Notes: a model not told the origin generated them from the sequence alone. 64,000 nucleotides of DNA from Gemmatimonas sp. (GCA_965279375.1 OZ257156.1:2496001-2560000); one strand, 5' to 3'; shown: positions 22,474 through 48,930, numbered from the stretch's first letter. Program-made: numbers and translations.

Positions 22474-24387
22474 TCACTCCTGGTGCGGCTTGTCTATCGC
22501 CGCGCGCAGTCGTGGAAGGACCCGATCGCCTGCAGCGGTGCCCATGAGATTGTGCGCTTCAGCGGGGTCGGCCAGATAGTCGAACAGCTCCTCTTCGCCG
22601 TCCCCGCGCCGAATGAAGTGATACTGCGCGTCGAGGGCACTGCGCATTGCGCCGAATCGCACCGGCTCATTCTCCTCCGGCCGCGGTTTGGCGCCAAGGT
22701 GCGCGACGATCGGAGCGGCGGTGTCCGTCGAGACCTCGGTCGACCAGAGCGCAGAAAACGACGTCCCCGGGAGCTTCGCGTCCTTGCCGAGCCCCGTGAG
22801 GTCCAGCACCGTCGCCGTGAGATCGCGCAGCGTGACGGGTGCGCTGACGCGCACGCCACGCGGCACACGCGCGGGATACCGGATCACGAGCGGAACGTGG
22901 AGCAGCGGCAAATAGAGTGCGTTGGCATGTTCGGTGAGTCCGTGTTCGCCGAACAGTTCGCCGTGATCCGACGTGATGATGACGATCGTATTGTCGAGCG
23001 CGCCCGTGCGCTGCAGCTCGTCGAGCATGCGACCGACATTGTCGTCGATCGTGGCGATCGATGCGTCGTACTTGCCCAGTGACCGGTGCGCAGGCTGCGC
23101 AAACTTCTTCAGCAGCGAATCGGGCGCTTTGTAGTCCATGTGCGCGTCGAAGAAATTCAGGAACGCAAAGAACGGACGTCCCTTCACGGTCTTCTGCCAC
23201 TCGAGAAATGCCGACGTGATCTCCGACGATGAGCGACGGGCGTACGTGTCGGAGTTGAAGTTGCGCTCGTCGAACTGCGTATCGATGTGTCGGATCGACC
23301 ACAGCACATCGATGAGCGAGTGCGCTCCCATGATCTGCTTGAAGACCGGCGTATGGGCCAGCCAGGCGTGCCCGAGCAGCTGGTGCATCGTCGGGTGATA
23401 GTCGTCGTAGTGCTCGAACCCTCTCGCCAGCCCCGACTCGCGTGACGTATAGAGCAGGTTGGCCACGAAGCCGCCCGTGGCGTATCCGCCTGCCTGCAGG
23501 CGCTCGGCGAGCATTGGCGAGTCGCCGCGCACCAAGCTGACGAAATCACCCTGGATGGCATCGGCGTCGAGCCCGGCGAACATGCTGGCGTGTGACTTGA
23601 GTGTCCACGGAGCGGTGCTGAAGGCCCGATCGAAGGTGACCCCTTCACCGGCCAGCGCAGAAAGGCGTGGACTGGTCTGCGGGGCGTATCCGTAGAGATT
23701 CAGATTGGCGGCTCGCACCGTGTCCCAGACCAGCAGCAGCACATTGGGCGCCCCCGCCGGCGCGTGGTCAGCGGCCGTGACAACGACACTGCCCGACCCC
23801 GAGCGCAGGGCGAACTGCGTCGCGACCATCGCGACCGTGACCGCAGTGAGCGCGCCGAGCCCCAGCCGCACGCGCCGCAGCCAGCGCGCGCCTCCGCCGC
23901 GGGCGCTGCGCCCGACCTGTACGGCGACGCCAATCGACAGCAGGATGATTGAGACCCGCGTCAGCTCGGCGAACGGGAGCAGCAGAGAAAACACCGACAG
24001 CCCCGCAAAAAATCCGCTGGTCGCCACGTTGACGCGAAAGCGGGGGAACAGCAGCGCGAGTAGCGCCCAGCCGGCGGCCAGCACCAGGTAGATGATCAGG
24101 TACGCGGCGGGCGCCATCCACACGTAGTCCGGGCTGGCAAAGATGAATCGCTCCCGGAGGTAATGGTTGATGCCTGCCAGTGAGAGTTGGAGCAGCGCGG
24201 TGATCAGCGCGAAGCAGGCGGCAATCGCGAGCGCAGTCCCGGCGCCGCCGAGCCGCGACTCCGTCGGCTCGCTACTGCTCTTCCCGTCGGCGCTCCCCTG
24301 CGCCGGCGCCAGACCTCGAAGCAGCAGGAGCAGCGCAAGCCCGATGAGTCCCCCCTGTACGACAAGGCTTGTGATGTCCGAGTTCAT
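22474..24387 (-). CDS. Membrane-anchored sulfatase-fold (AlkP superfamily) hydrolase/transferase 1
   Basis: Several N-terminal TMs, PNVLLLVWDTVRA, APWTLKSHAS, NFFDAH, TSDHGE, HVPL; AGGAG before ATG 24387. Confidence 0.85.
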   Translation of the reverse strand: MNSDITSLVVQGGLIGLALLLLLRGLAPAQGSADGKSSSEPTESRLGGAGTALAIAACFALITALLQLSLAGINHYLRERFIFASPDYVWMAPAAYLIIYLVLAAGWALLALLFPRFRVNVATSGFFAGLSVFSLLLPFAELTRVSIILLSIGVAVQVGRSARGGGARWLRRVRLGLGALTAVTVAMVATQFALRSGSGSVVVTAADHAPAGAPNVLLLVWDTVRAANLNLYGYAPQTSPRLSALAGEGVTFDRAFSTAPWTLKSHASMFAGLDADAIQGDFVSLVRGDSPMLAERLQAGGYATGGFVANLLYTSRESGLARGFEHYDDYHPTMHQLLGHAWLAHTPVFKQIMGAHSLIDVLWSIRHIDTQFDERNFNSDTYARRSSSEITSAFLEWQKTVKGRPFFAFLNFFDAHMDYKAPDSLLKKFAQPAHRSLGKYDASIATIDDNVGRMLDELQRTGALDNTIVIITSDHGELFGEHGLTEHANALYLPLLHVPLVIRYPARVPRGVRVSAPVTLRDLTATVLDLTGLGKDAKLPGTSFSALWSTEVSTDTAAPIVAHLGAKPRPEENEPVRFGAMRSALDAQYHFIRRGDGEEELFDYLADPAEAHNLMGTAAGDRVLPRLRAAIDKPHQE

Positions 24388-24705
24388 TCGGCGCCACTCC
24401 TGCGGCGTGCCGGCTGCGTGATGGGACGAGAGCGCGTGCCGTCCAAGAGGGCGGTTGATTCGCCGGGGGAGTCGACGCGGAGATCTTAACGCGTACTTTA
24501 CTTTCGGTTTGGGAACCGTAACAGGTCCGGACCCGGCATTTCCAGTGCGTAGCCTCCGGGTTGTCGTGGGTGTGAGCGGTCGCCTGGCCGAATACCTTTC
24601 TCCCTGCACACACCCACTTCGATACGCGGGATCGGCGTCGTGCGTCAGCATGCAGGCAGTGCGCGTCTGTCCTTCCAATCACTCGACCGGTTTATGAATT
24701 CGGGT

Positions 24706-24738
24706 TGCCACACTCGTACGAACGCGGTGCCACGCTCG
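24706..24738. promoter_or_regulatory. 11-bp direct repeat with 22-bp period, candidate regulator site
   Basis: TGCCACACTCG (24706) and TGCCACGCTCG (24728) just before ATG 24746. Confidence 0.3.
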
Positions 24739-24745
24739 CGCGCCG

Positions 24746-26590
24746 ATGGCTGACGTCCGCACGGTCGTCGTAATCGGCCTTGACGGCCTCGAGCCCGGCA
24801 TCGCCGAGCCGATGATGGACGCCGGCGCACTTCCGCATCTGGCAGCGCTGCGTGCCCGCGGTGGATTCGGTCGCGTGGCTACGACCACGCCGGCGCAGAC
24901 TCCGGTCGCCTGGTCGACTTTCGCCACCGGCGTGAATCCCGGCGCCCACGGCATTTTCGATTTCATTCGGCGCGATCCCAAGACCTACCTGCCCGACCTC
25001 GCGCTCAATCGCTACGAGCAGAAGAGCAGCTTCCTCCCCCCCAAGGCGGTCAACCTCCGCCGGGGAACGCCGCTCTGGGAAGTGCTCAGCAAGGCTGGCA
25101 TTCCGTCCACGGTCATTCGCTGCCCGTGCACCTACCCGCCCGACAACTTCAAGGGGCGCATGCTCTCCGGCATGGGCGTGCCCGATCTGCGCGGGGGACT
25201 GGGCACCAACACCTTCTACAGCACGAAGGCGGGAGTGAAGGCCGAGGAGAGCGAGGCAGTGGTGGCGCTCAAGTCAGACGGCCGCAGCATCCGGACGCAC
25301 CTCATCGGCCCGCGCAATCCAAAGACCGGCGGCGATCAGCTTCTCGATATCACCGTCGATCTCGATGTGGCCGGTCGCAAAGTCGTCGTGAAGTCCGATG
25401 GGCAGCCCAAGGCGCTCGAGGTGCGCGTCGGCGAGTGGAGCGACTGGCTGCGCGTCAAGTTCAAGCTGGGGATGCTCCAATCGGTCAGCGGCATGGTGCG
25501 CTTCCATCTCGTGAGCCTCGAGCCGTTCGTGGAGCTCTACGCGTCCCCGATCAACTTCGACCCGGAAACGCCCATGTTTCCGATCAGCCACCCGTGGGAC
25601 TATGCGCAGGAGTTGCAGCGCAAGGTCGGCACGTTCTACACGACGGGCATGGTCGAGGATCACGGTGGTCTGAACAACGAGCGCTTTGACGAACACGCCT
25701 TTCTCGCGCAGTGCGAGGGCGTGCTCAAAGAGCGTGAAGCGATGCTGTCGTACGAGCTCGATCGCCTGACGGAAGGCTTCCTGTTCTGTCTCTTCGACAC
25801 GCCGGACCGTCTGCAGCACATGATGTGGCGTTTCCGCGAGGACGCGCATCCCGCCAACCACGGGAAGATCGAGGCGAGCTATCGGGCCGCGATCGAAGAG
25901 CACTATCAGCGCAGCGATGCCGTCGTGGGACGCGCGATGCAGCGAGCGGACGACCGCACGCTCTTCATCGTCATGTCCGACCACGGCTTCTCGAGCTTCC
26001 AGCGCGGCGTGCACCTGAACAGCTGGTTGCAGGCCAACGGCTTCCTCACGCTCAAGAACGGTGCGACGCCCGGCGATGCCGGCGACTTCTTCAAGAACGT
26101 GGACTGGTCGCGCACCAAGGCCTACGCGCTCGGACTCGGCAGCATGTATCTCAACCTTGCCGGCCGAGAGGCCGAAGGGATCGTCGCGCCGCAGGACGCC
26201 GCGTCGGTGGCGCAGGCGATCGCGGAGGGCATGCGCGGTATGCCGGATCCCGAGCGCGGCACGGTGGCCGTGCGACGCGTCGCGCTGCGCGACGAGATCT
26301 ACTCGGGCGCCTATGCACACGAGTCACCCGACATGGTCGCGCTCTTCAACGCGGGCTATCGCGTCTCATGGGACACCGCGCTCGGTGGCATTCCGCATGG
26401 GCTCATCGAGAACAACACCAAGAAGTGGGGCGGTGACCACATCATCGATCCGCTGCTCGTGCCCGGTGTGCTCTTCATGAACCGACCGTTCCGCACCGAG
26501 GGCGCGCGACTGCTCGACCTCGCGCCCACCATCCTCTCGGCGCTTGGACCGGGAAAGATTTCCGCCATGGAAGGGGAGTCCCTGCTGTGA
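24746..26590 (+). CDS. AlkP/type I phosphodiesterase (NPP)-family protein, large
   Basis: IGLDG, TTPAQTPVAWSTFATG.NPG.HGIFDF, DRLQH, MSDHGF, GDH, DLAPTIL; no signal peptide. Confidence 0.9.
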   Translation: MADVRTVVVIGLDGLEPGIAEPMMDAGALPHLAALRARGGFGRVATTTPAQTPVAWSTFATGVNPGAHGIFDFIRRDPKTYLPDLALNRYEQKSSFLPPKAVNLRRGTPLWEVLSKAGIPSTVIRCPCTYPPDNFKGRMLSGMGVPDLRGGLGTNTFYSTKAGVKAEESEAVVALKSDGRSIRTHLIGPRNPKTGGDQLLDITVDLDVAGRKVVVKSDGQPKALEVRVGEWSDWLRVKFKLGMLQSVSGMVRFHLVSLEPFVELYASPINFDPETPMFPISHPWDYAQELQRKVGTFYTTGMVEDHGGLNNERFDEHAFLAQCEGVLKEREAMLSYELDRLTEGFLFCLFDTPDRLQHMMWRFREDAHPANHGKIEASYRAAIEEHYQRSDAVVGRAMQRADDRTLFIVMSDHGFSSFQRGVHLNSWLQANGFLTLKNGATPGDAGDFFKNVDWSRTKAYALGLGSMYLNLAGREAEGIVAPQDAASVAQAIAEGMRGMPDPERGTVAVRRVALRDEIYSGAYAHESPDMVALFNAGYRVSWDTALGGIPHGLIENNTKKWGGDHIIDPLLVPGVLFMNRPFRTEGARLLDLAPTILSALGPGKISAMEGESLL

Positions 26591-28050
26591 AGATTCTCGT
26601 CATCGGTCTCGATTGTGCAGCGCCCGATCTGTTGTTCGGCGATGAGTCGCTGGTCAACATCCGCCGCCTGATGAGCATGGGCGCGTACGGCCGACTCGAG
26701 AGCGTGGTACCGCCCATCACGATCCCCGCGTGGATGTGCATGTCCACCAGCCAGGATCCGGGGTCGCTCGGCATCTACGGCTTCCGCAACCGCGGCGACC
26801 ATTCGTACGACAAGCTGCAGATCGTCAACGCAAAGTCGATCCGGCAGATGGCGATGTGGGACTATCTCGCGACTGAAGGGAAGAAGTCGGTGTTGATCGG
26901 CGTGCCGCCCAGTTTCCCGCCGCGCAAGGTGAACGGCATCTGCGTCGGGTGCTTTCTCACCCCCGACTCCAACACCGATGTGTACACGCATCCGGCATCG
27001 GTGGCGGCGGAGATCCGTGAGTTGGTGGGCGAGTTCCCCGTGGACGTGAAGGGGTTCCGCACCGATCAGAAGGACTGGTTGCTGGAGCAGGTGTTCGACA
27101 TGAGCCGCAAGCACTTCACGGTCATCCGGCACTATCTCAAGAACGCCGAGTGGGACTACTTCCACTTCGTGAACATCGGCCTCGATCGCGTGCACCACGG
27201 CTTCTGGAGTTACTGCGATCCGAAGCACGTGGACTACGTGCCGGGCAACAAGTACGAGAATGTCATTCGCGACTACTACCAGCATCTCGATGAAGAGATC
27301 GGGACGGTGCTGGAGCTGATCGACGATGAGACGGTGGTGCTGGTCGTCTCCGATCACGGCGCACAGCCGCTGGATGGCGGCTTCTGCGTGAACGAATGGC
27401 TCGTGCGCGAAGGGCTGCTGGTGCTCAACGAGTATCCGAAGGAAGTCACACCCTTCGGCAAGCTCAACGTCGACTGGACCAAGACCAAAGTGTGGAGCGA
27501 AGGTGGCTACTACGCGCGTGTGTTCCTGAACATCGAAGGGCGCGAGCCAACCGGCGCGATCCCCAAGGACGATGTGCTGCGCTTCCGCGATGAGCTCAAG
27601 GCAAAGCTGGAAGCCACGGTCGACGAGCATGGCAAGCCACTCGGCACCCTCGTCTTCAAGCCCGAAGAGATCTACCACGACGTGAAGAACGTCGCGCCCG
27701 ATCTGATCGTGCACTTCGGGGCGCTGTCCTGGCGCTCGATCGGCGGCGTGGGCTACGATACAATCCACGTGCACGAGAACGACACGGGCCCGGACGACTG
27801 CAACCATGCCCAGTTCGGGGCGTTCATCCTCGCCGCGGCCAACAGTCCGCTGTCCGGGGAAGTGGAGGGCGCGCGGTTGCTGGATATCGCCCCCACGCTG
27901 TTCGAACTGGGTGGCTACGAGATTCCCGAGACGTTCCAGGGACGCTCGCTGGTGTCGGGGAAGGTGGCGGATGGCGGCCATCAGGACCTGGCGCCGGATC
28001 GTGAGGAGATCATCCGGCAACGCCTGGCCGGGCTTGGCTACATATCGTGA
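26587..28050 (+). CDS. AlkP/type I phosphodiesterase (NPP)-family protein
   Basis: IGLDCA, PPITIPAW, DRVHH, VSDHG, DIAPT, C-terminal RLAGLGYI; no signal peptide. Confidence 0.9.
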   Translation: MKILVIGLDCAAPDLLFGDESLVNIRRLMSMGAYGRLESVVPPITIPAWMCMSTSQDPGSLGIYGFRNRGDHSYDKLQIVNAKSIRQMAMWDYLATEGKKSVLIGVPPSFPPRKVNGICVGCFLTPDSNTDVYTHPASVAAEIRELVGEFPVDVKGFRTDQKDWLLEQVFDMSRKHFTVIRHYLKNAEWDYFHFVNIGLDRVHHGFWSYCDPKHVDYVPGNKYENVIRDYYQHLDEEIGTVLELIDDETVVLVVSDHGAQPLDGGFCVNEWLVREGLLVLNEYPKEVTPFGKLNVDWTKTKVWSEGGYYARVFLNIEGREPTGAIPKDDVLRFRDELKAKLEATVDEHGKPLGTLVFKPEEIYHDVKNVAPDLIVHFGALSWRSIGGVGYDTIHVHENDTGPDDCNHAQFGAFILAAANSPLSGEVEGARLLDIAPTLFELGGYEIPETFQGRSLVSGKVADGGHQDLAPDREEIIRQRLAGLGYIS

Positions 28051-28077
28051 TCTGCATCACATGTCGCTCCTTCCGGG

Positions 28078-28094
28078 CGGCATGGAACTCGCAA
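28078..28094 (+). promoter_or_regulatory. Candidate sigma-54 (-24/-12) promoter
   Basis: CGGCATGGAACTCGCAA: GG-N10-GC, resembling TGGCACG-N4-TTGC, 47 bp upstream of the small ORF. Confidence 0.4.
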
Positions 28095-28141
28095 TAAACT
28101 CTCGTTAATTCTGTGCGTCGACCGTAACCGAGACCGCGTCC

Positions 28142-28321
28142 ATGACCATCGAACAGATTCCTGTGCTTCCACTTGCGATGTACATCGGCCCCGAGGTGAT
28201 GATGCCGGTGGCGTCTGCCATCGCGGCGGTCGTGGGCTACTTGTTGATGTTCTGGCGCAGCACTGTGGCGTTTGCGAAACGGGCGGGTTCCGCCGTCGGC
28301 CGCCTTTTCGCCAAGCGGTGA
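28142..28321 (+). CDS. 59-aa single-pass membrane peptide (Y-I-G-P type)
   Basis: Not in the ORF track; MTIEQIPVLPLAMYIGPEVMMPVASAIAAVVGYLLMFWRSTVAFAKRAGSAVGRLFAKR; TM helix plus basic tail; followed by a hairpin. Confidence 0.75.
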   Translation: MTIEQIPVLPLAMYIGPEVMMPVASAIAAVVGYLLMFWRSTVAFAKRAGSAVGRLFAKR

Positions 28322-28341
28322 CCTGACAGAACCGGGACGCA

Positions 28342-28378
28342 GACGCGGCCAGCGAGAGATCCTCTCGCTGGCCGCGTC
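28342..28378. terminator. Strong stem-loop between convergent genes, probable terminator
   Basis: GACGCGGCCAGCGAGAG-ATC-CTCTCGCTGGCCGCGTC, perfect 17-bp stem. Confidence 0.8.
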
Positions 28379-28456
28379 CGCATTTGTGCTCTCGCTACAC
28401 CGCCGTCGCTATGCCCCTGAGGGGCACTGGCGTCGGCGATGACCGTGCGCCGCTGG

Positions 28457-29965
28457 CTAGCGGTCCAGCTCCGAGGCCACGGAGCGCCAGGGCGAGCGAA
28501 TCCCCCAGATTCCGGCCAGCAGAGCGGCCACGAACAGGTACGACGCGACCGCCGACGGACGACCGTCCAGCCATGGCAGATACTGGGTTGCCATCTTGCC
28601 GAGCGTGTTGAGCCACGGCAGCTGCAAGCCTTCGACGAAGACGTGCAGGATGTTGGTGTGGACGCCGTACTGATTGCGTACCATCGCAATGCAGAGCGCC
28701 ACCGTGACGGACGCCAGCAGCACCGGGTAGGCAAGCGCTCTCGGGATGCGAAGCAGGACCGCCGCCGCCGGCAGGAAGAGGAACGGCACCACCGGCATGA
28801 GATAGCGAATCCCGGTGTTCCATTGCAGGCGCGTGTAGGCGATCGCTGAAAAGAAGACGACGTACGCGAGCCCGATCGCAAGGCAGACCACTGCTTCGCG
28901 TGTCGGCAGGAAGCTGCGGCCGCCGCGCACCACGAAAGGAGCGGCCACCGCCAGCGACAACAGCGGCGCAGCGATGAACAGGCCGTAGCGCAGATCGAAG
29001 AGCAGTTGCAGGAACAGCTGCAGATTCGGCCCGGTGACGCCCTGATAGCCCTGATCGCTGAAGATCACGGCCTTGGGCATCCAATGTTGCGGCGGCAGAA
29101 TGAAGCTGCCAAAGGCGGCCCACTGGTACCACCAGAGCACGAGGATCATGGGCAGGGCGCCGGCAGTGAACACTGCGCCGGCACGCACGACGCCCGACCA
29201 CGGCTGCGTGTCGCGCGCCTTTGCCAGCGTGTACAAGCCAAGAATGCCGAGTGCGAGGGCCCCGCTGTAGTCGCAGAGGAAGCCGAAGCCCGCCAGCATG
29301 CCGGCGAGGAACACGCGCGTCGGTTCGCGCAACGTCAGCCTCTCGCCCGGATTCCAGAGCAGGAAGAAGGCGGTCACGGCGACGATGCCGAGCGCGAGAT
29401 TCTGATTGAGGTAGGCCGTGCGAAAGAGCACCGGTGTGCCGAACGCATACAGCAGCGAGAGCCACATCGCATGCCGCTGCGGGAGGCCGGTCCCCTCGAG
29501 AATCCGGAACAGAATCACGACGCCGAACGCGGACAGCGGTGCCATGCACAGCACCATCGTGATCACGCCCACCAGTCCGAATCGCACGTCCAGTCCGAGT
29601 CGCCGCACTTCCTTGTAGAACTTCACCCGAGGTGCACGCGGGTCGTTGTACACCGCGAGCGTATCCGCGCCCGTCGCGCGGCGCGCGGCGAGCGATCGAT
29701 TCACCACGACATCGACGAGCGGTTTCGTGATGGCGTACGGCACTGCGGCCAGCATCGAGATGCCGGGGTTGGCGCCGTGGTGTACACCGCCGTGCGGGGC
29801 TTCAGGGCCGTTCCGGAAAATGTCTTCGTGCAGCCCGTAGTACTTGCCGAGGTCGAAGCTCGTGTCCTCGACCATGCTCATGACGAGGTAATGCTCGCGC
29901 ACGAAATCCGTCGCGAAATGCAGACAGAACACGACCCAGCAGGTGAGAAATATTCGCAGGCGCAT
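28457..29965 (-). CDS. Polytopic membrane protein, probable GT-C fold
   Basis: Short N-terminal TM, REHY and D-I-F loop, PG.S.LA, GLF...P, GIRYL.P. Confidence 0.6.
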   Translation of the reverse strand: MRLRIFLTCWVVFCLHFATDFVREHYLVMSMVEDTSFDLGKYYGLHEDIFRNGPEAPHGGVHHGANPGISMLAAVPYAITKPLVDVVVNRSLAARRATGADTLAVYNDPRAPRVKFYKEVRRLGLDVRFGLVGVITMVLCMAPLSAFGVVILFRILEGTGLPQRHAMWLSLLYAFGTPVLFRTAYLNQNLALGIVAVTAFFLLWNPGERLTLREPTRVFLAGMLAGFGFLCDYSGALALGILGLYTLAKARDTQPWSGVVRAGAVFTAGALPMILVLWWYQWAAFGSFILPPQHWMPKAVIFSDQGYQGVTGPNLQLFLQLLFDLRYGLFIAAPLLSLAVAAPFVVRGGRSFLPTREAVVCLAIGLAYVVFFSAIAYTRLQWNTGIRYLMPVVPFLFLPAAAVLLRIPRALAYPVLLASVTVALCIAMVRNQYGVHTNILHVFVEGLQLPWLNTLGKMATQYLPWLDGRPSAVASYLFVAALLAGIWGIRSPWRSVASELDR

Positions 29966-35527: not shown

Positions 35528-35548
35528 ACGTCCCCTGTCTGGGTGAGG

Positions 35549-40242: not shown

Positions 40243-41724
40243 CTACAATCCGACGCTCTGTGACTCCAGCGCATGATGCCGCGCCCGCCAATGGGCAGCG
40301 ACCTCGCGCGGCGGTGCGATCCAGACCTGCGAATCCGCGGCGATGCGGCTCCAGAAATCCAGATAGGTGCGGGTCCAGAGCGGAAACAGCGTGTCGTCGA
40401 ATACGTAATCGTGCACGTCGATCATCATGATGCCGCCATGCGCCACGACCGTGCGTTGGAGCTCCGACAAGCGTGTCTGCCGATCGCCGGTGTTGATTGC
40501 CCGATAGCTGAACAGCTGATCGTCCATCCACCCGGTTGGCAGCTGCAGCGTGTCGATCGGACGACGCTGCTGCTCGCTGAAGGGGAAGTACGGTACGTTG
40601 GTCCCGGCGCGCCACCCAAGGTAGCGCTCGTGCGAGATCGAAGCATCGTAGCGCAACCCGATCTGCTCGTGCATCAGCAGCGTTTCTTCCGGGTTGGCCG
40701 GGTTGAGGTGCCAGTAGTGATGCCGGCCTCCATCCACTGGCTGGCCGCTGACGCGCGCCAGCCGTTCCTTCTCGCCGGCGAACCGCTCGACCTGCTCGAA
40801 GGCGCGGTAGCTCGCGTGGAGTCCGACCTCGAAGCCGGCGTCGGTGAGGCGCCGAAAGGCCTCCGCGAATCTGGGCGTCGAAATGTCGTAGAACGAGTCC
40901 GGGGTGCCCGAGGCGTACTCGCGCAGCGAACCTTGTCGAGGCACGAAGTAGAACGCCGATCGGGTGCGGAGCGCCGACTCCGCTTCGATCCACGCGTCGA
41001 ACATCCAATGCGATCGCTGGCCCAGGGCGACGCCCAACGCGGTGCCGGCACTGCGCCAGCCGTTGCGTCGCACGATGCGTAGCGGCTCGAGCCAACGAAT
41101 GACTTCCGGATAGTCCACGTCGTGACTGGCGCAGGCGGCGGCCTTCTTTCCGTCCGGCCAACGTGGAGTCGGATTGCCGTGATAGAGCGAGACGAGCAGG
41201 ACCTCGAGGCGCGCGATGATCGAGGACGCCACCGCCTTGCACAGGGCCCCGTCGGTCAGCAGCGGCGATGCACTGAGATCGAGTCGCCCATGGGAATCGC
41301 GCTGGAACGACTTCTCCGGCTGCCGTGTGAGGTGCCAGAACAGGTCGAATATCAGATCCCGGTCGCAGCGCCACGTCCCGTCAGCGTTGCGGCGCAGCGG
41401 CCGTTGGACGCCGCTCTCTCCCTGAAAGATCGGGACATGCCAGTCCACGGAAACGTCGGTTTCCTCGACCCGCTGCACGGCCACCAGCTGCGCCTGCGAT
41501 GGATGCCGCCAACGCGCTGCGTTCGCGAGCATCGTGAGCTGCGGCGACTTCTGTGACTCGCCGTCCGGTTGGGTCGCGTAAACCACGTCGGCGTCTTCGC
41601 GCGCGTCCACGCGCTCCCACGGAATGCCGGCGGTCGTGAGCACCACCTTCCAGCTCCAGGTGATTTCCGCGGCGTGCGGTATCCCGACAGCGGGATCGAT
41701 CCAGATGCGCAGGCGCGGTGTCAT
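40243..41724 (-). CDS. Polysaccharide deacetylase-family protein with N-terminal extension
   Basis: SHDVD, EVGLH.SY, GGRHHY, YDAS, G.RAGT..PY, MD. Confidence 0.78.
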   Translation of the reverse strand: MTPRLRIWIDPAVGIPHAAEITWSWKVVLTTAGIPWERVDAREDADVVYATQPDGESQKSPQLTMLANAARWRHPSQAQLVAVQRVEETDVSVDWHVPIFQGESGVQRPLRRNADGTWRCDRDLIFDLFWHLTRQPEKSFQRDSHGRLDLSASPLLTDGALCKAVASSIIARLEVLLVSLYHGNPTPRWPDGKKAAACASHDVDYPEVIRWLEPLRIVRRNGWRSAGTALGVALGQRSHWMFDAWIEAESALRTRSAFYFVPRQGSLREYASGTPDSFYDISTPRFAEAFRRLTDAGFEVGLHASYRAFEQVERFAGEKERLARVSGQPVDGGRHHYWHLNPANPEETLLMHEQIGLRYDASISHERYLGWRAGTNVPYFPFSEQQRRPIDTLQLPTGWMDDQLFSYRAINTGDRQTRLSELQRTVVAHGGIMMIDVHDYVFDDTLFPLWTRTYLDFWSRIAADSQVWIAPPREVAAHWRARHHALESQSVGL

Positions 41725-42563
41725 CGCTTCGCGCCCAGCCCGCGCTGCCAGCGATCGAAGTTCGCGCGCGCCACACGCCGTGCGGCGGCCGACATTTTGT
41801 AATACTGGCGTCCCTGGTCCGCTGACTGCGGAGTCCGGTCGAGCGCCTGCCCCGCGAGCACCTGACGCACGGCGCCCGCCAAAAGATCAAGGCAGTCCTC
41901 GTACATGGCGGACTGCAGGCTGTCGAAATCGCTGACCGGCCGACTGCCGAACGGTTGCACCTTCACGATCGCTCCGGTGTCGATACCGACGTCGACGAAG
42001 TGCAGCGTGCTGGCGAGCATCTCGGGCTTGTCATCGTGCAACGTCCACTGCGGAACATCGACGCCGCGATATTGCGGGAGCCACCCCGGATGCGCATTCA
42101 ACACGCCGCCGCTCGCGGAGTTGATAACGGCGTCCTTGACGATCCCCGACTGTGCCAGCACGATGAAATCGGGGCGCAGCGACTGGAGAACCACGTCGAT
42201 CCCCGGCGCCATGAACGCCTCCACCCACCGGACCTCGGGCGCCAGGCGTGCGTAGTCGCGGATCAGCGGGGCCCCACGCCAAGGCTGGTCGGCCGACACA
42301 CGCCGGTCGGCCAAGACCTCCACGACCGCCGCCTGAATAGCGTCGACCCAGCCGATGCGTCGCGCGACCGACTTGAGCAGGCGCCACTTCCGCTTGAAGC
42401 TGTCTCTTCGGACGACGATGGCGACCGGCACCGTCTGTTGGCGCGCCAACAGGTTGAGCATGCGGTAGCCGTACTCGCTCCCCTCGGTCGTGAGGACGAC
42501 GATGCGGGCTGGCGGCCCCGGCGCCGCACCCAGGCTTGGCGATGGCGCTGACGAATCGGACAT
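41721..42563 (-). CDS. Formyltransferase (N10-formyl-THF dependent)
   Basis: LNAHPGWLPQYRG, HFVD.GIDTG. Confidence 0.88.
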   Translation of the reverse strand: MSDSSAPSPSLGAAPGPPARIVVLTTEGSEYGYRMLNLLARQQTVPVAIVVRRDSFKRKWRLLKSVARRIGWVDAIQAAVVEVLADRRVSADQPWRGAPLIRDYARLAPEVRWVEAFMAPGIDVVLQSLRPDFIVLAQSGIVKDAVINSASGGVLNAHPGWLPQYRGVDVPQWTLHDDKPEMLASTLHFVDVGIDTGAIVKVQPFGSRPVSDFDSLQSAMYEDCLDLLAGAVRQVLAGQALDRTPQSADQGRQYYKMSAAARRVARANFDRWQRGLGAKR

Positions 42564-42635: not shown

Positions 42636-44489
42636 CTACGGCTTCCGCGGTCCGCGCGTGATGGATTGCACGCGCTGGCGAAGCTCCTGCGCTCGCGCCG
42701 AATGCACGGGGGCGGAGACCAGATCGCGCTGCTCCATCGGATCGGTGCGGAGGTCGTAGAGCTCACCTCGGCCGTCGCCGTTCAGGATGTAGCGAAAGCC
42801 GTCGAGAATCTCCGACTTCATGTCGCCCTTGGACACGGCGAACTGCGCCGGGAGGTTGCGGGCGAAGTCGACCTCCGCGATCAGCGGCGAGGTCAGGGAG
42901 TCTGGCGCCGTCTGACGCCACAGGCCGACCATTGACTGCCCCGGAAGTCGCGCCGACTCCGGGGCCCGCGTGAGGTCGAGGATCGTCGCGCCGAGGTCCC
43001 GCAGCGTGACTGGGCTCTTCACCACCTGGCCGGCGGGAACGACGCCCGGGTACAGCACGAGCAACGGCACGTGCACCGAGGGCAGATACAGCGAGCTGCC
43101 ATGATTCAGCAGGCCATGCTCGTTGAATTCCTCGCCATGGTCCGAGGTCACGACGACCAGCGTGTTCTTGAGCAGCCCGCGCGACTCGAGCGCTGCGAAC
43201 AGGTCGCGTAGCTGAGCATCGAGCGAGGCGATGGACGCGTCGTACGCCGCCTGCAGGTCGCTCACCTGCGCCGCATTCAGGTCGTCCGGCGCGGGATCCC
43301 GATTGGTGGCTTGGCGTCCGAGAAAGAGCGTGTCGTACGGCGCCGGCGGCGTGTACGGGCCGTGTGCATCGTAGTAGTTCGCGAACGCAAAAAACGGTCG
43401 CTGCCCTCGCGAGGCGATCAGATCGAGCAGCCGCTCGTTGATGCGCGTCGCCGACTGTCGGCCCGGGCTGAATTCGCGCGGCAGGTACCGGTTGAACGCC
43501 ATGGACACCGTCCGGCTCAGCGACGAGGTCCGCAGCATCTCGCTCAGTGAGATGTCGTAGTCGCGGTACCGCGCAAAGCCGCGGTCGATGCCGAACTCGT
43601 ACGAGCAGTAGTGCAGATTCGCGGCGACGCCGTACGTGGCATACCCCTGCTGTCCGAGGCGCTCGGCGAGCGTCGGTTCCCGATCGTCGAGCGGCACGCT
43701 CCATCCGATCGAGAGTTCGTGCGGGTAGCGTCCAGTGAACATCGAGGCGTGCGACGCCAGCGTCCACGGCGCGGGTGCGATCGCCTGATCGAAGCGGACG
43801 CCGCGCGCTGCCAATTCCGAGAGAAACGGCGACGTGGCGCGCGTGTAGCCGTAGGCGCTGAGCGATGCCGCGCGCACGGTGTCGAGCACCAGCAGCAACA
43901 CGTTCGGGGCGCCGTCGGCGGCGTTGCCAAGTCGAGACAGCGCGCGCGATTCGCGGAACCAACGCAGCCCGTTGAAGCCGATCCCTGCGGACGCGGAGAC
44001 GGCGAAGAATCCAAGGGTGACTCGCCGTGTCACCGTGGCGAACGCCGCGGGGCGGGCCATGGCGAATCGGGCCACCTGCGAACCGAAGCCCGCCGCGAGC
44101 AACAGCAGCGCAAAGGGATGGATGCGTTCCTGCAACACCATCAGCGGCTCGAGCGCGGCCACCAGCGCCGCGCAAAAGGCCACGCCGGCGACGGCGACCT
44201 TGGCGGACCACCGGCGCGCCACCAGCCACACCAGCACACACGGCACGATCAGCAGCAGGACGTTGGCAATGGGGGCCAGCCACAGTCCCTGCGGATTGAA
44301 CATCGCATACCGGTGCAGCGCGACCCGCGCACCGAGGATGAGCCCTGCTTCGCCAAGGCTGCCGGCCAAGGCGCCCGCGGCCACGACCCACCAGACCGCG
44401 CGAAACGAGGACCAGCCACCGTCCGCGGTCGCCTGCGCGTCACGCTGCAACGTCGCGCTGGAGGTGCAGTCGTGGTGGGAGCTCTGCAT
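42636..44489 (-). CDS. Membrane-anchored sulfatase-fold hydrolase/transferase 2
   Basis: Several N-terminal TMs, PNVLLLVLDTVRA, APWTLASHASMFTG, NYYDAH, TSDHGE, HVPL; start approximate. Confidence 0.85.
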   Translation of the reverse strand: MQSSHHDCTSSATLQRDAQATADGGWSSFRAVWWVVAAGALAGSLGEAGLILGARVALHRYAMFNPQGLWLAPIANVLLLIVPCVLVWLVARRWSAKVAVAGVAFCAALVAALEPLMVLQERIHPFALLLLAAGFGSQVARFAMARPAAFATVTRRVTLGFFAVSASAGIGFNGLRWFRESRALSRLGNAADGAPNVLLLVLDTVRAASLSAYGYTRATSPFLSELAARGVRFDQAIAPAPWTLASHASMFTGRYPHELSIGWSVPLDDREPTLAERLGQQGYATYGVAANLHYCSYEFGIDRGFARYRDYDISLSEMLRTSSLSRTVSMAFNRYLPREFSPGRQSATRINERLLDLIASRGQRPFFAFANYYDAHGPYTPPAPYDTLFLGRQATNRDPAPDDLNAAQVSDLQAAYDASIASLDAQLRDLFAALESRGLLKNTLVVVTSDHGEEFNEHGLLNHGSSLYLPSVHVPLLVLYPGVVPAGQVVKSPVTLRDLGATILDLTRAPESARLPGQSMVGLWRQTAPDSLTSPLIAEVDFARNLPAQFAVSKGDMKSEILDGFRYILNGDGRGELYDLRTDPMEQRDLVSAPVHSARAQELRQRVQSITRGPRKP

Positions 44490-44706: not shown

Positions 44707-46515
44707 ATGATCCCAACAGACGCGACGTCCGGGCGGCGCCTCAATCTCGTGATTGGCGGCCACGTCGATCACGGCAAGAGCACAATCATCGGACGGCTGC
44801 TGGCCGACACGGGCTCGCTCCCCGATGGGAAGCTCGAAGCGGTGCGCGCCAACTGTGTGCGGAACAGCAAGCCGTTCGAGTACGCGTTCCTGCTCGACGC
44901 GCTCAAGGACGAACAGGCGCAGGGCATCACCATCGATGCGGCGCGCGTTTTCTTCCAGTCGGCGCTGCGCCCGTACATCATCATCGACGCGCCGGGACAC
45001 ATCGAGTTCCTCCGCAATCTGGTGACCGGCGCCGCGCGCGCCGAGGCGGCGCTGCTCGTCATCGATGCGAAGGAAGGCGTGCAGGAGAACTCGAGGCGCC
45101 ACGGCTACATGATGTCCATGCTGGGCATCAAGCAGCTCGTCGTGCTGGTCAACAAGATGGACCTCGTCGGCTACGATCAGGCGGTATTCGATCGCATCCA
45201 GAGTGAGTATCGCGAGTTCCTCGGCCGGCTGAACGTCGTGCCCGAAGGCTTCATTCCGGTGAGCGGCCGCGAAGGGGACAACATCACCGCTGCCTCGCCC
45301 GCGATGCCCTGGTACACCGGCCCCAGCGTCCTCGAGCAACTCGACCGCTTCCGCTCCGACGCGCCGGAGACCGATCAGCCGTTCCGTATGTCCGTGCAGG
45401 ACGTCTACAAATTCACGGGCCGTGGAGACGAACGGCGCATCGTCGCCGGCTCCATCGACAGCGGACGCATCACCGTCGGCGACGAGGTGGTGTTCTATCC
45501 CTCGGGCAAGAAATCGACGGTCAAGTCGATCGAAGCCTTTAACCGAGCGCCGAGCGACACGGCCGTCGCGGGCGAGGCCACCGGCTTCACGCTCACCGAA
45601 CAGATCTACGTGTCGCGCGGCGAGCTGGCGTCCCTTGCACACGAGCAGCGACCGCACGTGACCACGCGCCTGCGTGCCTCCGTGTTCTGGCTGGGCAAGA
45701 AGCCGCTCGTGCAGCACCGTGACTACATCCTCAAGATCGGTGCGGCACGCGTGCAGGCGCGCGTCGAGGAGATCCATCGCGTCCTCGACGCGTCGTCACT
45801 CGACGTCGACAATCAGAAGGTCCGCGTCGATCGGCACGAGGTGGCCGAGCTCACGCTGCGCACCAGCCGCGCACTCGCCTTCGATCTCGCGGACGAGCTG
45901 GCGACGACCAGCCGGTTCGTGCTCATCGACGAGTTCGAGATTCGCGGTGGCGGCATCGTGAGAGAGGCGCTGCCCGACACGATGTCCGGCGTGCGCGAAC
46001 GAGTGCTGCTGCGCAACTACAAGTGGGAACCGAGCAACATTTCGAGCGACGCGCGCGCCGAGCGTTATCGGCAGCGTCCGACGTTGCTGCTCATGACCGG
46101 TGAAGCCAGCTCCGACCGGAAGTCGCTGGCCAAGGACGTCGAGCGGCGCCTCTTCGATCTCGGGAACATCGTTTACTTCCTCGGCATCGGGAACGTGCTG
46201 TATGGCGTCGATGCCGACATCGACCGCGGCGATGCGCAGCGACGCGAACACCTGCGCCGACTGGCGGAAATCGCCAACCTCATGCTCGATGCCGGTGTCA
46301 TTCTCATCGTCACTGCCGCCGAGTTGACGCTGGCCGATCTCGAGCTGATCCGCGCCTCCGTCGATGCCGATCGTATCGAGATCGTGTGGGTGGGCGATTC
46401 CGGCACCAGCGATCTGCCGCACGATCTGCTCATTCCGGATCCGGACGATTCGAGCGCGGTCGAACAGGTGAAGCGGCTGCTGCAGGACAAGGGAATCATC
46501 TTCCGGCCATGGTGA
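44707..46515 (+). CDS. cysN: Sulfate adenylyltransferase subunit 1 with degenerate C-terminal APS-kinase-like domain
   Basis: [25 protein letters not shown]-terminal domain has GEASSDRKS in place of the P-loop. Confidence 0.92.
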
Positions 46516-47312
46516 GCTCCACTGAGGACTCGTCGCCCGCGCTGAGTCGCGCGTCGCTCGACCTGCTGATCGCCATCGCGCGCCAAGCCGGTGCGGCGGC
46601 GATGGCATTCTACGGCGAGGCAGGTGAGGCGACGCTGGACGTCACACACAAGTCCGACGCCTCGCCGGTCACGGCGGCGGACCACGCGGCGCACGCCGTC
46701 ATCGCCGACGAGTTGGCGCGCGCCTTCCCGGACATCCCGATCATCTCCGAAGAAGGCGAGATCGCGCCCTATGAGGCACGCAAGGATTGGCGCCGATTCT
46801 GGCTGGTCGATCCGCTGGACGGCACCAAGGAGTTCATTCACCGCAACGGCGAGTTCACCGTCAACATCGCATTGATCGACGACGGGGTGCCGGTGCTGGG
46901 CGTGGTCTTCGCGCCCGCGCTCGATGTGCTCTATGCCGCAGGACGTGAGCTTGGCAGCTGGAAGTACACGGGCACGGGAAGTCCCGAGCAGCTGTTCGGT
47001 CCAAACGCTCCGGGGCCAGAGGGCGTGACGATCGTCGAAAGCCGTTCGCACCCGTCCAAGGAACTCGAGGCGTACCTCGCGACGCTGCGCGTCGCGTCGC
47101 GGTTGCCCTCTGGAAGCTCTCTCAAGTTCGGTCTCGTCGCCGAAGGCAAGGCGCATCTGTATCCGCGCCTCGGCCCGACGATGGAGTGGGACGTCGCTGC
47201 CGGCGACTGCGTGTATCGCTATGCCTCGCGTGGCGCGGCGCGCGTGTCGCCGCTGTCGTACAACACACCCACGCTCAAGCAGCAGTCGTTCGTGCTCGGA
47301 GTGACCGAATGA
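46509..47312 (+). CDS. cysQ: 3'(2'),5'-bisphosphate nucleotidase
   Basis: [29 protein letters not shown]. Confidence 0.95.
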
Positions 47313-48049
47313 CCGCGCGCGAATCGCATACGCGCAGCGTCATCAAGGCGGTCAGCTGGCGCATTCTGGGCACGATCGCCACGTCCATCATCGTCTTCGC
47401 GTTCACCCGGCGGTGGGCCGTTTCGTTGTTCGTCGGCGCGATGGAATTCGTCTCCAAGATCGGGCTCTTCTGGCTGCACGAGCGTATCTGGGACCGTGTC
47501 TCGTTCGGCCGCAAGCAGACTGCGGGCACGGTGCTCTGGTTCACGGGGCTCTCGGGCTCTGGCAAGAGCACCATCGCGCAGGAAGTCGTGCGTACGCTGC
47601 GCGCCAGCGGAGAGAAGATCGAGCATCTCGACGGTGATGCGGTGCGCTCGGTTTTTCCGGCGACCGGCTTCACCCGACCGGACCGCGACGCGCATGTGCG
47701 CCGCATGGGCTTCATGGCCAGCCGACTCGAAGAGCACGGCGTGTTGGTGATCGCGTCCTTCGTCTCGCCGTACCGCGAATCGCGCGATGCGGTACGCGCG
47801 ATGTGCACCGACTTTGTCGAAATCTTCGTCGATACGCCGCTTGCCGTGTGCGAGTCGCGCGACGTGAAAGGGCTCTACGCCAAGGCGCGACGTGGCGAGA
47901 TCCCGAACTTCACCGGCATCGACGATCCGTACGAACCACCTGTGCGCGCAGAACTCGTCATCGACACGACGAAGGTGTCGGTCCAGGACGCGACGCAGCA
48001 GGTGCTCGCCCTCCTGCAGTCACGCCGCACCCGGAGACCCACGGCATGA
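47309..48049 (+). CDS. cysC: Adenylyl-sulfate kinase with N-terminal DUF2061-type membrane domain
   Basis: RS..KA.SWR...HER.W (DUF2061-like), then [32 protein letters not shown]. Confidence 0.93.
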
Positions 48050-48930
48050 GCCAGCACCTGGATCAACTCGAGTCCCGTAGCGTCCACATCTTTCGTGAGG
48101 CCTACGCCAACTTCAAGAGCCTCTGCATGCTCTGGTCGATCGGCAAGGACAGCACCGTGCTGCTCTGGCTCGCGCGCAAGGCGTTCTTCGGGCACGCGCC
48201 GTTTCCGCTCGTACACATCGACACGTCGTACAAGCTGCCGGAGATGATCGAGTATCGCGACCGCCTCGCGATGGAGTGGAAGCTGACGATGATCGTCGGC
48301 CAGAACACGGAGGCGCTCGAAGCCAAGCGCACCTTCCCCGACGGGGCCGTGGATCGCATCTCCTGCTGCGGCCTGCTCAAGACGCAGGCGCTCAAGGACA
48401 CGCTGAGCGGCACCGGCGTGCGTCGTCGCCTCAACCTGCGTACGGGCGTCTACGAAGTGGACACCAATCGCGAGCCATACACCGGGGTGATCGTCGGCGC
48501 CCGTGCGGACGAAGAAGGGAGCCGGTCGAAGGAACGCTATTTCTCGCCGCGTACCGAGAGCAACGTCTGGGATGTGGGCGAGCAGCCTCCCGAATTCTGG
48601 AACCAGTACAAGACCGAGTTCGCGCCGGGCACACACGTGCGTATCCATCCCCTGCTCGACTGGACGGAACTCAATATCTGGGAATACATCGAGCGCGAAA
48701 AGATTCCCACCGTGCCCCTCTACTACAATCAGGGCGATGGCATGCGCTATCGCTCACTCGGCTGCGGCGTCTGCACCAACAAGGTCGTCTCGCCGTCGCA
48801 CAATCCGGTTGAGATCATCGAGGAACTGCGCAGCGGCAAGTTTGCGCGCGTCGCCGAACGCGCCGGCCGCGCGCAGGACAAGGAAGACGGTGGCGGCCTC
48901 GAAACGCTGCGCCGCGAAGGCTACATGTAG
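48046..48930 (+). CDS. cysD: Sulfate adenylyltransferase subunit 2
   Basis: SIGKDS, HIDT, RADEE.SRSKER.FSPR, QPPE.W, HVRIHPL..WTE, EGYM. Confidence 0.93.

What the first reader, a model, noticed from the sequence alone, without database searches (positions are those of the whole stretch)
22474..48930. Candidate sulfotransferase-independent, trans-membrane glycan sulfation relay built from AlkP-superfamily enzymes and a PAPS operon
Seen: a cysN-cysQ-cysC-cysD operon with no cysH or sulfite reductase, and no recognisable P-loop sulfotransferase in the 64 kb. Two paralogous membrane-anchored sulfatase-fold genes each sit head-to-head with a partner operon: one with the cys operon (44489/44707), one with two signal-less AlkP/NPP proteins (24387/24746). 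Established: CysDNC plus CysQ without a reductase supplies PAPS for sulfation and recycles PAP; TM-anchored AlkP-fold enzymes with a Thr nucleophile (LtaS, EptA, OpgB) are transferases that use lipid donors. Inference: the cytoplasmic AlkP pair loads sulfate from PAPS/APS onto a lipid or other carrier, and the membrane enzymes move it onto surface glycan outside the membrane.
Basis: partly seen in the sequence, partly recalled or inferred. Interest (0 to 1): 0.85.

Follow-up and report, generated by a model that had tools for sequence, protein, structure and literature searches.

The report
Tyrosine microprotein relay for envelope sulfation
This bacterium has the genes to make the sulfate donor PAPS but none of the usual enzymes that spend it; it likely hands sulfate from phosphatase-fold enzymes inside the cell to a tyrosine on a tiny, unnamed membrane protein, and from there to sulfatase-like enzymes predicted to face outward, which would put it on surface sugars, a route not found in our literature searches.

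Summary
Observation confirmed and extended. The complete genome has cysNQCD but no PAPS reductase, sulfite reductase or known sulfotransferase family. AlkB relatives are fused to ATP sulfurylase (119 of the best 120 longer homologues) or sit beside cysC in bacteria and archaea. In 150 related genomes the microprotein tracks the membrane sulfatase-fold enzyme TMS (13 of 15 TMS genomes; 4 of 135 others). A membrane-anchored P-loop sulfotransferase occurs in 10 genomes, all with TMS and none with AlkB, and is naturally fused to TMS across one membrane helix. TMS plus microprotein folds with weak support (0.54 against 0.00). Best reading: PAPS > AlkB > AlkA > microprotein Tyr > TMS Thr > envelope glycan. 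Odds: sulfation relay about 0.75, Tyr carrier about 0.55. No chemistry is shown. How the Tyr crosses the membrane is open, and one relative has the relay but no PAPS genes were found in it. The scan noted similar systems earlier on other DNA (e1-5262197, e1-9961234, e1-8738748).

The parts
22474..24387 (-). TMS1: six predicted membrane helices plus a sulfatase-fold domain with Thr262 (motif WTLKSH); predicted outward-facing sulfo-transferase
   Evidence: Pfam PF00884 E 1e-43; hydropathy; Thr position; paralogue of TMS2
24746..26590 (+). AlkA: soluble two-metal NPP-like AlkP enzyme, Thr52; predicted to load the microprotein
   Evidence: PF01663; D13, D354, H358, D412, H413 and H565 invariant, position 52 Thr in 40 and Ser in 9 of 49 aligned relatives; microprotein in 24 of 29 AlkA loci against 2 of 50 AlkA-less loci; fused to it in L034, L037, L039, L135
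26587..28050 (+). AlkB: soluble two-metal NPP-like AlkP enzyme, Thr45; predicted PAPS/APS-consuming first loader
   Evidence: PF01663; D9 invariant and T45, D200, H204, D256, H257, H407 at least 90% conserved in 44 sequences; model pLDDT 91, nearest folds NPP and PhnA; ATP sulfurylase fusions; cysC neighbours
27994..28050 (+). C-terminal acidic helix plus RLxxLGY tail of AlkB (Tyr485, codon 28039-28041); mobile module, covalent carrier or docking helix
   Evidence: Found on AlkB, on CysC or as a ~70-aa free protein in 58 of 79 AlkB loci; Tyr in 77 of 77 high-scoring tails (the profile was seeded on Tyr-containing tails); follows a disordered linker in the model
28142..28321 (+). Unnamed 59-aa (47 aa from the second ATG at 28178) single-span microprotein, motif Y-[IVL]-G-P-[DE], Tyr codon 28181-28183; predicted N-out; candidate sulfate shuttle
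   Evidence: 79 synonymous against 30 non-synonymous codon changes in 5 close homologues; 563 small homologues, no family name; no Pfam or NCBIfam hit; Tyr in 119 of 119 motif-bearing hits, mean K+R 0.07 at the Tyr end against 5.5 after the helix; co-occurs with TMS; weak complex support
28457..29965 (-). Multi-pass PMT/GT-C-like membrane protein, a recurring neighbour; possibly builds the acceptor glycan (role not established)
   Evidence: Atlas look-alikes carry PF02366/PF13231 in 10-44% of members, a lead only; homologues in 6 of 79 AlkB loci
42636..44489 (-). TMS2: five predicted membrane helices plus a sulfatase-fold domain with Thr243 (motif WTLASH); predicted outward-facing sulfo-transferase
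   Evidence: PF00884 E 3e-49; model pLDDT 90.5; Z 40 to type I sulfatases, 30-32 to LtaS, LtaP, YejM and 29.5 to EptA; Thr aligns with the formylglycine position; fused to a P-loop sulfotransferase in P0241-P0243
44707..46515 (+). cysN with a degenerate APS-kinase-like tail
46512..47312 (+). cysQ, PAP 3'-phosphatase
   Evidence: TIGR01331 over cut-off
47309..48049 (+). cysC, APS kinase, with an N-terminal DUF2061 membrane module
48046..48930 (+). cysD, ATP sulfurylase small subunit
   Evidence: NF003587 over cut-off; sole PF01507 hit of the genome

Best explanation
The locus encodes PAPS synthesis, two soluble and two membrane-bound alkaline-phosphatase-fold enzymes and a Tyr-bearing membrane microprotein, which together likely relay sulfate across the inner membrane onto a cell-envelope glycan. 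Step 1 (family-level knowledge): CysDN and CysC make PAPS and CysQ removes PAP; no reductase was found, so the PAPS is for sulfation. Step 2 (inferred, strong context): AlkB takes the sulfo group from PAPS (or APS) onto Thr45. Step 3 (inferred, weakest chemical step, about 0.35): it passes to AlkA Thr52, possibly by way of the Tyr of the RLxxLGY tail. Step 4 (inferred): AlkA sulfates the invariant Tyr of the microprotein, giving an aryl sulfate. Step 5 (inferred, mechanism open): the sulfated N-terminus is moved outward, here probably by the housekeeping YidC; a dedicated Oxa1-family gene accompanies the fused form in other genomes. Step 6 (inferred): TMS1 and TMS2 take the sulfate onto their Thr and, lacking formylglycine, pass it to a sugar hydroxyl rather than to water, each probably at its own position. 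In many relatives a membrane-anchored P-loop sulfotransferase would do steps 2-4.
For: No other PAPS consumer found in a complete genome. AlkB fused to ATP sulfurylase in 119 of the best 120 longer homologues. cysC within the fetched flanks in 32 of 79 AlkB loci, including archaea, and CysC present in 13 of 13 genomes with AlkA/AlkB loci. A separate PAP phosphatase candidate (CysQ, DHH or PHP) sits in these modules. Among 150 phylum genomes TMS is in 15; 12 of these have CysC against 62 of 150 overall, and it is physically linked in the fetched regions of several. The microprotein is in 13 of 15 TMS genomes and 4 of 135 others, 3 of them weak hits in long ORFs. The P-loop sulfotransferase family is in 10 of 151 genomes, all TMS genomes, and in none of the 9 AlkB genomes. 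Three natural TMS-helix-sulfotransferase fusions place the two domains on opposite sides of the membrane. The microprotein is fused to AlkA behind a signal-peptide-like leader in 4 loci. An Oxa1-superfamily gene (E 6.6e-12 to MJ0480) lies in 7 fused-form loci and in only 2 of 151 genomes, both with the motif in a long ORF. TMS2 plus microprotein scored 0.54 against a best control of 0.00; the mark was reached by 116 of 157 solved complexes and 2 of 215 mismatches, but at 0.60 or under by only 18 of the 157 and by both mismatches; the runs agree in at least 42% of contacts and partner pLDDT is at least 65. Precedents: AlkP-superfamily Agl30/Agl31 are needed for glycan sulfation (PMC11980604); Tyr shuttles in Dlt and Pat (PMC12148441).
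Against: No sulfo-enzyme, sulfo-Tyr or sulfated product is shown. The nearest solved folds of AlkA/AlkB are phosphodiesterases. G059 (97% complete, 70 contigs) has AlkA, AlkB, microprotein and TMS, but no CysC, Sat or CysD was found. G122 and G148 have TMS without microprotein or PAPS genes. G130 has neither AlkB nor the membrane sulfotransferase. G027 has an LGY-tailed CysC but no AlkA or AlkB. The Tyr is predicted outside while its loader is inside, and this genome has no dedicated Oxa1-like gene, only one YidC. The LGY tail is absent from all 120 long AlkB homologues and resembles the ordinary last helix of APS kinase, which can end LGF. Positive-inside bias for TMS is modest: 4.3 K+R before and 3.2 after the last helix. 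12 of the 14 strong microprotein genomes contributed to the search profile, and kin are not independent. Outside this phylum sample, 14 of 16 bacterial AlkB genomes also hold PF00685 proteins.
Confidence: 0.55

Rival explanations
1. The same inside-to-outside sulfation relay, but the carrier that crosses is a lipid or small phenol. The microprotein is a structural subunit of TMS and the LGY tail a docking helix.
For: LtaS, EptA and OpgB use lipid donors (established knowledge). It avoids the flipping problem. The LGY tail looks like the APS-kinase terminal helix. The complex score shows at most binding, not chemistry.
Against: A structural peptide gives no reason for a Tyr that is invariant in 119 of 119 hits, nor for the Oxa1-family gene tied to the fused form. 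No recurring lipid-flippase family stood out in the loci clustered. The displacing enzyme is of the Sulfotransfer_1 family, which acts largely on phenols (recalled).
Confidence: 0.22
2. Sulfation is finished in the cytoplasm: AlkA/AlkB sulfate lipid-linked or nucleotide sugars, as proposed for Agl7 and Agl30/31, GT-C enzymes export them, and TMS proteins edit or remove sulfate outside.
For: Several PMT/GT-C-like and GT2 genes lie in the window. The archaeal precedents act on Dol-P glycans (PMC3892788 passages, PMC11980604 Discussion). 50 of 79 AlkB loci lack AlkA, and nearly all of these lack microprotein and TMS. TMS folds closest to hydrolytic sulfatases.
Against: TMS lacks the Cys/Ser needed for formylglycine. 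It does not explain the microprotein-TMS co-occurrence, the microprotein-AlkA fusion or the TMS-sulfotransferase fusion. It may still describe the AlkB-only modules.
Confidence: 0.1
3. The AlkP enzymes do phosphoester chemistry: AlkB is a pyrophosphatase or APS/PAPS hydrolase that serves sulfate activation, and AlkA/TMS move a phospho-group (phosphoglycerol, -choline or -ethanolamine). The PAPS operon is a neighbour with some unseen consumer.
For: NPP-like fold and both metal sites. Fusion to ATP sulfurylase fits a pyrophosphatase. Weak hits of TMS to EptA/MCR-type models, all far below cut-off. G059, G122 and G148 lack PAPS genes.
Against: It leaves PAPS without a consumer in a complete genome. 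AlkB is mutually exclusive with a P-loop sulfotransferase among TMS genomes, which a hydrolase would not be. TMS is fused to that sulfotransferase. TMS scores Z 40 to sulfatases against 30-32 to phospho-transferases.
Confidence: 0.1

Closest known systems
DltB/DltX/DltD and PatA/PatB tyrosine acyl shuttles (PMC12148441; abstract, start of introduction and passages read)
   Same: A cytoplasmic activated donor, an invariant outward Tyr on a membrane microprotein, and an outer transferase with a covalent intermediate that decorates an envelope polymer.
   Different: The group would be sulfate, not acyl. The enzymes are AlkP-fold, not MBOAT and SGNH. The Tyr is near the N-terminus (YxGP[DE]), not in a C-terminal FXYXXF motif. 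There is no MBOAT tunnel, so the Tyr end would have to move across.
Agl30/Agl31 of Halobacterium salinarum (PMC11980604; abstract, passages and Discussion read) and Agl7 of Haloferax volcanii (PMC3892788; passages read)
   Same: Agl30/31 are AlkP-superfamily, sulfatase-like proteins shown genetically to add sulfate to a glycan. 6HHM, named there as a best structural match, and 5G2T (the same BT1596 protein as the 5G2U named there) rank 3 and 8 for TMS2.
   Different: That paper names no donor (the term PAPS occurs 0 times) and no mechanism. Its enzymes are described as membrane-associated and cytosolic, with no carrier or relay. Sequence kinship to TMS or AlkA/B was not tested, and Agl7's fold was not stated in the passages seen.
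LtaS / EptA(MCR) / OpgB / YejM membrane AlkP proteins
   Same: Five membrane helices plus an outer AlkP domain; Thr nucleophile in the transferases; YejM aligns over the full TMS2 model range.
   Different: They move phospho-groups from lipids. TMS is far below their NCBIfam cut-offs, closer in fold to sulfatases, and genetically tied to PAPS genes.
Nucleotide pyrophosphatase/phosphodiesterase (NPP) and phosphonoacetate hydrolase
   Same: Fold, Thr nucleophile and two-metal site of AlkA/AlkB.
   Different: 13-17% identity and TM-score about 0.5-0.56. AlkA/B are cytoplasmic, highly conserved from bacteria to archaea (40-74%) and fused to ATP sulfurylase.
Periplasmic arylsulfate sulfotransferases (ASST)
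   Same: PAPS-independent sulfo transfer from an aryl sulfate by way of a sulfo-enzyme (bioRxiv 10.64898/2026.10.08.757636, search listing only).
   Different: Different fold (beta-propeller, recalled); not found in this genome.

Membership tests
Type I (formylglycine) sulfatase: TMS1/2 | Sulfatase fold | tested here: met
   Z 40.4, rmsd 3.5, 393 aligned to 4upl; PF00884 over cut-off
Type I (formylglycine) sulfatase: TMS1/2 | Cys or Ser convertible to formylglycine, followed by x-P/A-x-R | tested here: not met
   Invariant Thr and His at these positions in 27 sequences; requirement per PMC3693508 passages
LtaS/EptA/OpgB membrane transferases: TMS1/2 | Five membrane helices plus an AlkP domain with a Thr nucleophile | tested here: met
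   Model helices 2-160, invariant Thr
LtaS/EptA/OpgB membrane transferases: TMS1/2 | Catalytic domain outside | tested here: inconclusive
   Modest charge bias; supported by the fusion with one helix between TMS and a sulfotransferase; no direct topology data
LtaS/EptA/OpgB membrane transferases: TMS1/2 | Family profile score over the curated cut-off | tested here: not met
   EptA, MCR and YejM models 15-47 bits against cut-offs of 404-1250
LtaS/EptA/OpgB membrane transferases: TMS1/2 | Phospholipid head-group donor | not testable with these tools
   Needs an assay
NPP family: AlkA/AlkB | NPP fold, Thr nucleophile, two-metal ligand set | tested here: met
NPP family: AlkA/AlkB | Hydrolysis of phosphodiester or pyrophosphate bonds as main activity | not testable with these tools
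   Needs an assay; the genomic context points to sulfo transfer
P-loop (PAPS-dependent) sulfotransferase pathway | A Sulfotransfer_1-5 family gene in the genome | tested here: not met
   0 hits; Stf0 family search uninformative; PF06990 not searched
Assimilatory sulfate reduction | PAPS/APS reductase and sulfite reductase | tested here: not met
Dlt/Pat tyrosine shuttle | Invariant Tyr on a membrane microprotein, facing outward | tested here: met
   Invariance and charge asymmetry; leader-fused forms; topology is predicted, not measured
Dlt/Pat tyrosine shuttle | C-terminal FXYXXF motif with MBOAT and SGNH partners | tested here: not met
   Motif is N-terminal YxGP[DE]; partners are AlkP-fold
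Dlt/Pat tyrosine shuttle | Microprotein binds the outer transferase | tested here: inconclusive
   Weak support, 0.54 against 0.00
Dlt/Pat tyrosine shuttle | Covalent Tyr intermediate | not testable with these tools
   Needs labelling or mass spectrometry
Agl30/Agl31-type AlkP sulfotransferases | Sequence kinship to Agl30/Agl31 | not tested
   Their sequences were not at hand through the tools used
Agl30/Agl31-type AlkP sulfotransferases | Required for glycan sulfation in vivo | not testable with these tools
   Needs knockouts

The most novel reading that the evidence does not exclude
A widespread, undescribed two-tyrosine bucket chain exports activated sulfate. An AlkP-fold enzyme (AlkB) is a new class of PAPS-dependent sulfotransferase that charges a soluble RLxxLGY carrier. 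AlkA moves the sulfate to a membrane microprotein, whose newly anionic N-terminus is flipped outward by a YidC/Oxa1 insertase. Thr-nucleophile 'sulfatases' spend it on envelope glycans. A large set of proteins annotated as sulfatases and phosphodiesterases in bacteria and archaea would then be sulfotransferases.
Probability: 0.3. Interest if true: 0.92.

Novelty: categorically new. Interest (0 to 1): 0.82.

Why it matters
PAPS is made in the cytoplasm, and no route for sulfating a polymer outside a bacterial inner membrane turned up in my searches. If true, this supplies such a route. It gives a donor and mechanism to test for the AlkP-fold sulfotransferases so far known only from archaeal genetics. 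It assigns a function to a family conserved from bacteria to archaea and fused to ATP sulfurylase, and it predicts that many Thr-type 'sulfatases' add sulfate. It extends the tyrosine-shuttle principle from acyl to sulfo groups with unrelated enzymes and implies an insertase used to move a metabolite. Each step is testable with four purified proteins, a synthetic peptide and 35S-PAPS.

Tried and rejected
Solved-structure sequence search with AlkB: one marginal hit, no close structure. Paper searches for COG3379 (1 unrelated paper), for AlkP superfamily plus PAPS terms (17 listed, none on such a system by title or abstract start), for the motifs (0) and for Thr-nucleophile periplasmic sulfotransfer (0); the library lacks most subscription papers, and no supplements were read, including Table S1 of PMC3892788, which holds Agl7's annotation. 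AlkB as the PAP phosphatase: rejected, because CysQ, DHH or PHP genes sit beside it. A hidden sulfotransferase among unannotated window ORFs: none at Pfam E 0.5, and the membrane-sulfotransferase profile finds nothing in the genome. A dedicated Oxa1-like gene in this genome: none. A second, 'degenerate' CysC as tail loader: the DG-[SAP] variant is seen only in 4 LGY-tailed CysCs, while most others with a readable motif keep DGD; left open. Promoter scan of 24300-28600: nothing above shuffles. RNA: no RNA holder listed. The microprotein alignment could not be used for a contig scan. A genome-level replicate in a second phylum was not done (searches failed on an argument); only locus-level counts cover other phyla.

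Full report
1. Observation. The window lies in a single-contig, 99.95% complete, 5.31-Mb genome. Its closest AlkB relatives are Gemmatimonadota records. The genome has one PF01507 hit, CysD, and no sulfite reductase domain, so it can make PAPS but no route to reduce it was found. No Sulfotransfer_1, 2, 3, 4 or 5 hit and no arylsulfate sulfotransferase hit was found. The Stf0 search is uninformative and PF06990 was not searched. The surrounding 64 kb is rich in envelope-glycan genes: GT2, GT4, a polysaccharide flippase, sugar epimerases, and PMT/GT-C-like proteins.

2. AlkB belongs with sulfate activation. Of 79 loci fetched with AlkB (1.5-22 kb, some truncated), 32 carry cysC, often as the next gene, in Chloroflexota, Verrucomicrobiota and Archaeoglobi among others. 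Of 175 longer homologues, the best 120 were listed, and 119 are ATP sulfurylase-AlkB fusions. In a sample of 150 genomes of the phylum (at least 90% complete), 8 have a full AlkB orthologue. Seven of the 8 have CysC, 5 as the adjacent gene, against 62 of 150 overall. The modules carry their own PAP phosphatase candidate: CysQ here, DHH in archaea, PHP in relatives. AlkB keeps the Thr and both metal sites and several invariant arginines. Its model (pLDDT 91) is closest to NPP and phosphonoacetate hydrolase at 13-17% identity.

3. (a) AlkB ends in an acidic helix plus RLxxLGY after a disordered linker. The same tail occurs on CysC, on other AlkP paralogues, or as a free ~70-aa protein, in 58 of 79 loci. 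It is missing from all 120 long homologues and resembles the normal last helix of APS kinase, so it may only dock. (b) Directly after alkB lies a 59-aa single-span protein. It is under purifying selection (79 synonymous against 30 non-synonymous codon differences in five close homologues), has 563 small homologues without a family name, and no Pfam or NCBIfam match. The Tyr is present in 119 of 119 motif-bearing hits, with basic residues only after the helix, which predicts N-out topology. It occurs in 24 of 29 AlkA loci against 2 of 50 AlkA-less loci; 13 of these loci fed the profile. In an independent set of metagenome AlkA loci it occurs in 11 of 15. In four loci it is the N-terminus of AlkA behind a leader ending in A-x-A or L-Q-A. 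Each profile hits only its one place among 96,835 ORFs of this genome.

4. The outer enzymes. TMS2 has five predicted helices and a sulfatase fold. An invariant Thr and His replace the Cys/Ser and Arg of formylglycine sulfatases (requirement per PMC3693508, passages). That a Thr or Ser sulfo-enzyme cannot be cleared by the formylglycine elimination route, and so favours transfer, is recalled knowledge; one search did not supply a paper for it. TMS is in 15 of 150 genomes, often in tandem arrays. Twelve of the 15 have CysC, and in G027 TMS is again head-to-head with the sulfate-activation genes. The microprotein profile hits 13 of the 15 TMS genomes and 4 of the other 135: G045 strongly and three weakly in long ORFs. 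Twelve of the 14 strong genomes fed the profile, so the informative part is the 131 blanks and the two new hits, G103 and G059. A complex prediction of TMS2 with the microprotein gave weak support: 0.54 against a best control of 0.00. The mark was reached by 116 of 157 solved complexes and 2 of 215 mismatches, but at 0.60 or under by only 18 of the 157 and by both mismatches. The runs agree in at least 42% of contacts, partner pLDDT is at least 65, and no contacts were given.

5. The displacement and the fusion. Most TMS genomes lack AlkB, and 9 of the 15 lack AlkA. Looking for what they have instead, I found an N-terminally anchored Sulfotransfer_1 protein. Searched over all 151 genomes it is present in 10 (one partial), every one a TMS genome, and in none of the 9 AlkB genomes. 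Among the 16 TMS genomes including this one, 4 have AlkB, 10 have the P-loop enzyme and 2 have neither. Three of five longer relatives of that enzyme are full TMS, then one hydrophobic helix, then the sulfotransferase. Since PAPS is cytoplasmic, this places the TMS domain outside and joins the two halves of the relay in one chain. These are the strongest arguments that TMS handles sulfate and that AlkB does the job of a PAPS sulfotransferase. Kin are not independent (8 genera, 2 families). Other P-loop sulfotransferases do coexist with AlkB: 14 of 16 bacterial and 2 of 14 archaeal genomes, completeness unknown. The two closest relatives in that set have none.

6. Crossing the membrane. The Tyr is predicted outside and its loaders inside. 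Seven loci with the fused AlkA form carry a ~275-aa gene whose profile matches the Oxa1-superfamily protein MJ0480 (E 6.6e-12; Atlas lead to PF01956). It is found in only 2 of 151 genomes, both with the motif in a long ORF. This genome lacks it and has one ordinary YidC. Small N-out proteins depend on YidC and the membrane potential according to their N-terminal charge (PMC8548208, search listing only). So sulfation could itself be the charge switch for export; this is inference and the least supported step.

7. Results against. G059 has the four relay genes, but no CysC, Sat or CysD was found (97% complete). G122 and G148 have TMS without microprotein or PAPS genes. G130 has AlkA but neither first loader. 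G027 has an LGY tail with no AlkA or AlkB. G090 and G135 have both AlkA and the P-loop enzyme, so the roles are not a simple swap. The TMS charge bias is modest. Nothing biochemical is shown and the acceptor glycan is unknown.

8. Relation to what is known. Agl30 and Agl31 are AlkP-superfamily proteins required for archaeal glycan sulfation, with no donor or mechanism given (PMC11980604: abstract, passages, Discussion). Agl7 contributes to sulfation of Dol-P-hexose (PMC3892788, passages). Dlt and Pat use a Tyr shuttle for acyl groups (PMC12148441: abstract, start of introduction, passages). The present system works like the latter but fails its membership features, and it fails those of type I sulfatases and of the LtaS/EptA families. 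Searches found no description of it. The scan's own earlier notes report like systems on other DNA. I had written down the tyrosine ideas before those look-ups. The notes gave me the Oxa1 lead and one paper, and I count them as leads, not support.

9. Verdict. Real, and more complete than first read. Odds: the locus sulfates the envelope through an inside-outside AlkP relay, about 0.75; the microprotein Tyr is the carrier, about 0.55; the full two-tyrosine, insertase-flipped chain, about 0.3. I class it as categorically new as a system, with precedents for single parts; interest 0.82.

Noticed in passing
window 2-1354 (-) and 1524-2705 (+): Carbamoyltransferase (NodU/CmcH type) beside a GDSL/SGNH-like protein; may be a second group-transfer relay for the same envelope.
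   Followed up: no
window 13583-17722 (+): Small carrier-like protein, FkbH, MaoC-SDR fusion and an unknown 216-aa gene: a likely acyl/glyceryl tailoring set.
   Followed up: no
window 32703-42563 (-): Operon downstream of TMS2: formyltransferase, VimE-like deacetylase (weak), unknown 588-aa protein, GT2, asparagine-synthase-like amidotransferase, PMT-like protein and UDP-GlcNAc 2-epimerase; a candidate for the acceptor glycan.
   Followed up: no
window 46075-46515 and 47309-47500: CysN carries an APS-kinase-like domain with a degenerate P-loop, and CysC carries a DUF2061 membrane module that may hold PAPS synthesis at the membrane.
   Followed up: partly
L057:9775-9999 and 9 other archaeal loci; L023, L037, L039, L072, L076, L078, L135: Free ~70-aa proteins with a weak ribbon-helix-helix hit (E 0.026) that end in the RLxxLGY tail, beside AlkB or AlkA.
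   Followed up: partly
L135:7946-8767, L034, L037, L039, L023, L165, L166: Dedicated Oxa1/EMC3-superfamily gene with a soluble insert, tied to the microprotein-AlkA fusion.
   Followed up: yes
L143:4828-5946 and P0241-P0243: Membrane-anchored Sulfotransfer_1 family found only in TMS genomes of the sample, and fused to TMS in three protein clusters.
   Followed up: yes
L124:1773-6015: A Dlt-like set (AMP-binding-enzyme homologue, DltX-like peptide, DltD, carrier protein, MBOAT) next to the cys operon and TMS in a Gram-negative relative.
   Followed up: no
G003, G006, G009, G012, G015, G018: Six to ten AlkB-like paralogues per genome (~30% identity) with no TMS or microprotein hit; possibly a cytoplasmic branch fed by the AlkB-CysC module.
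   Followed up: no
G063, G088, G131 (same genus): None has AlkB, TMS or the microprotein, so the module is patchy even within the genus.
   Followed up: partly
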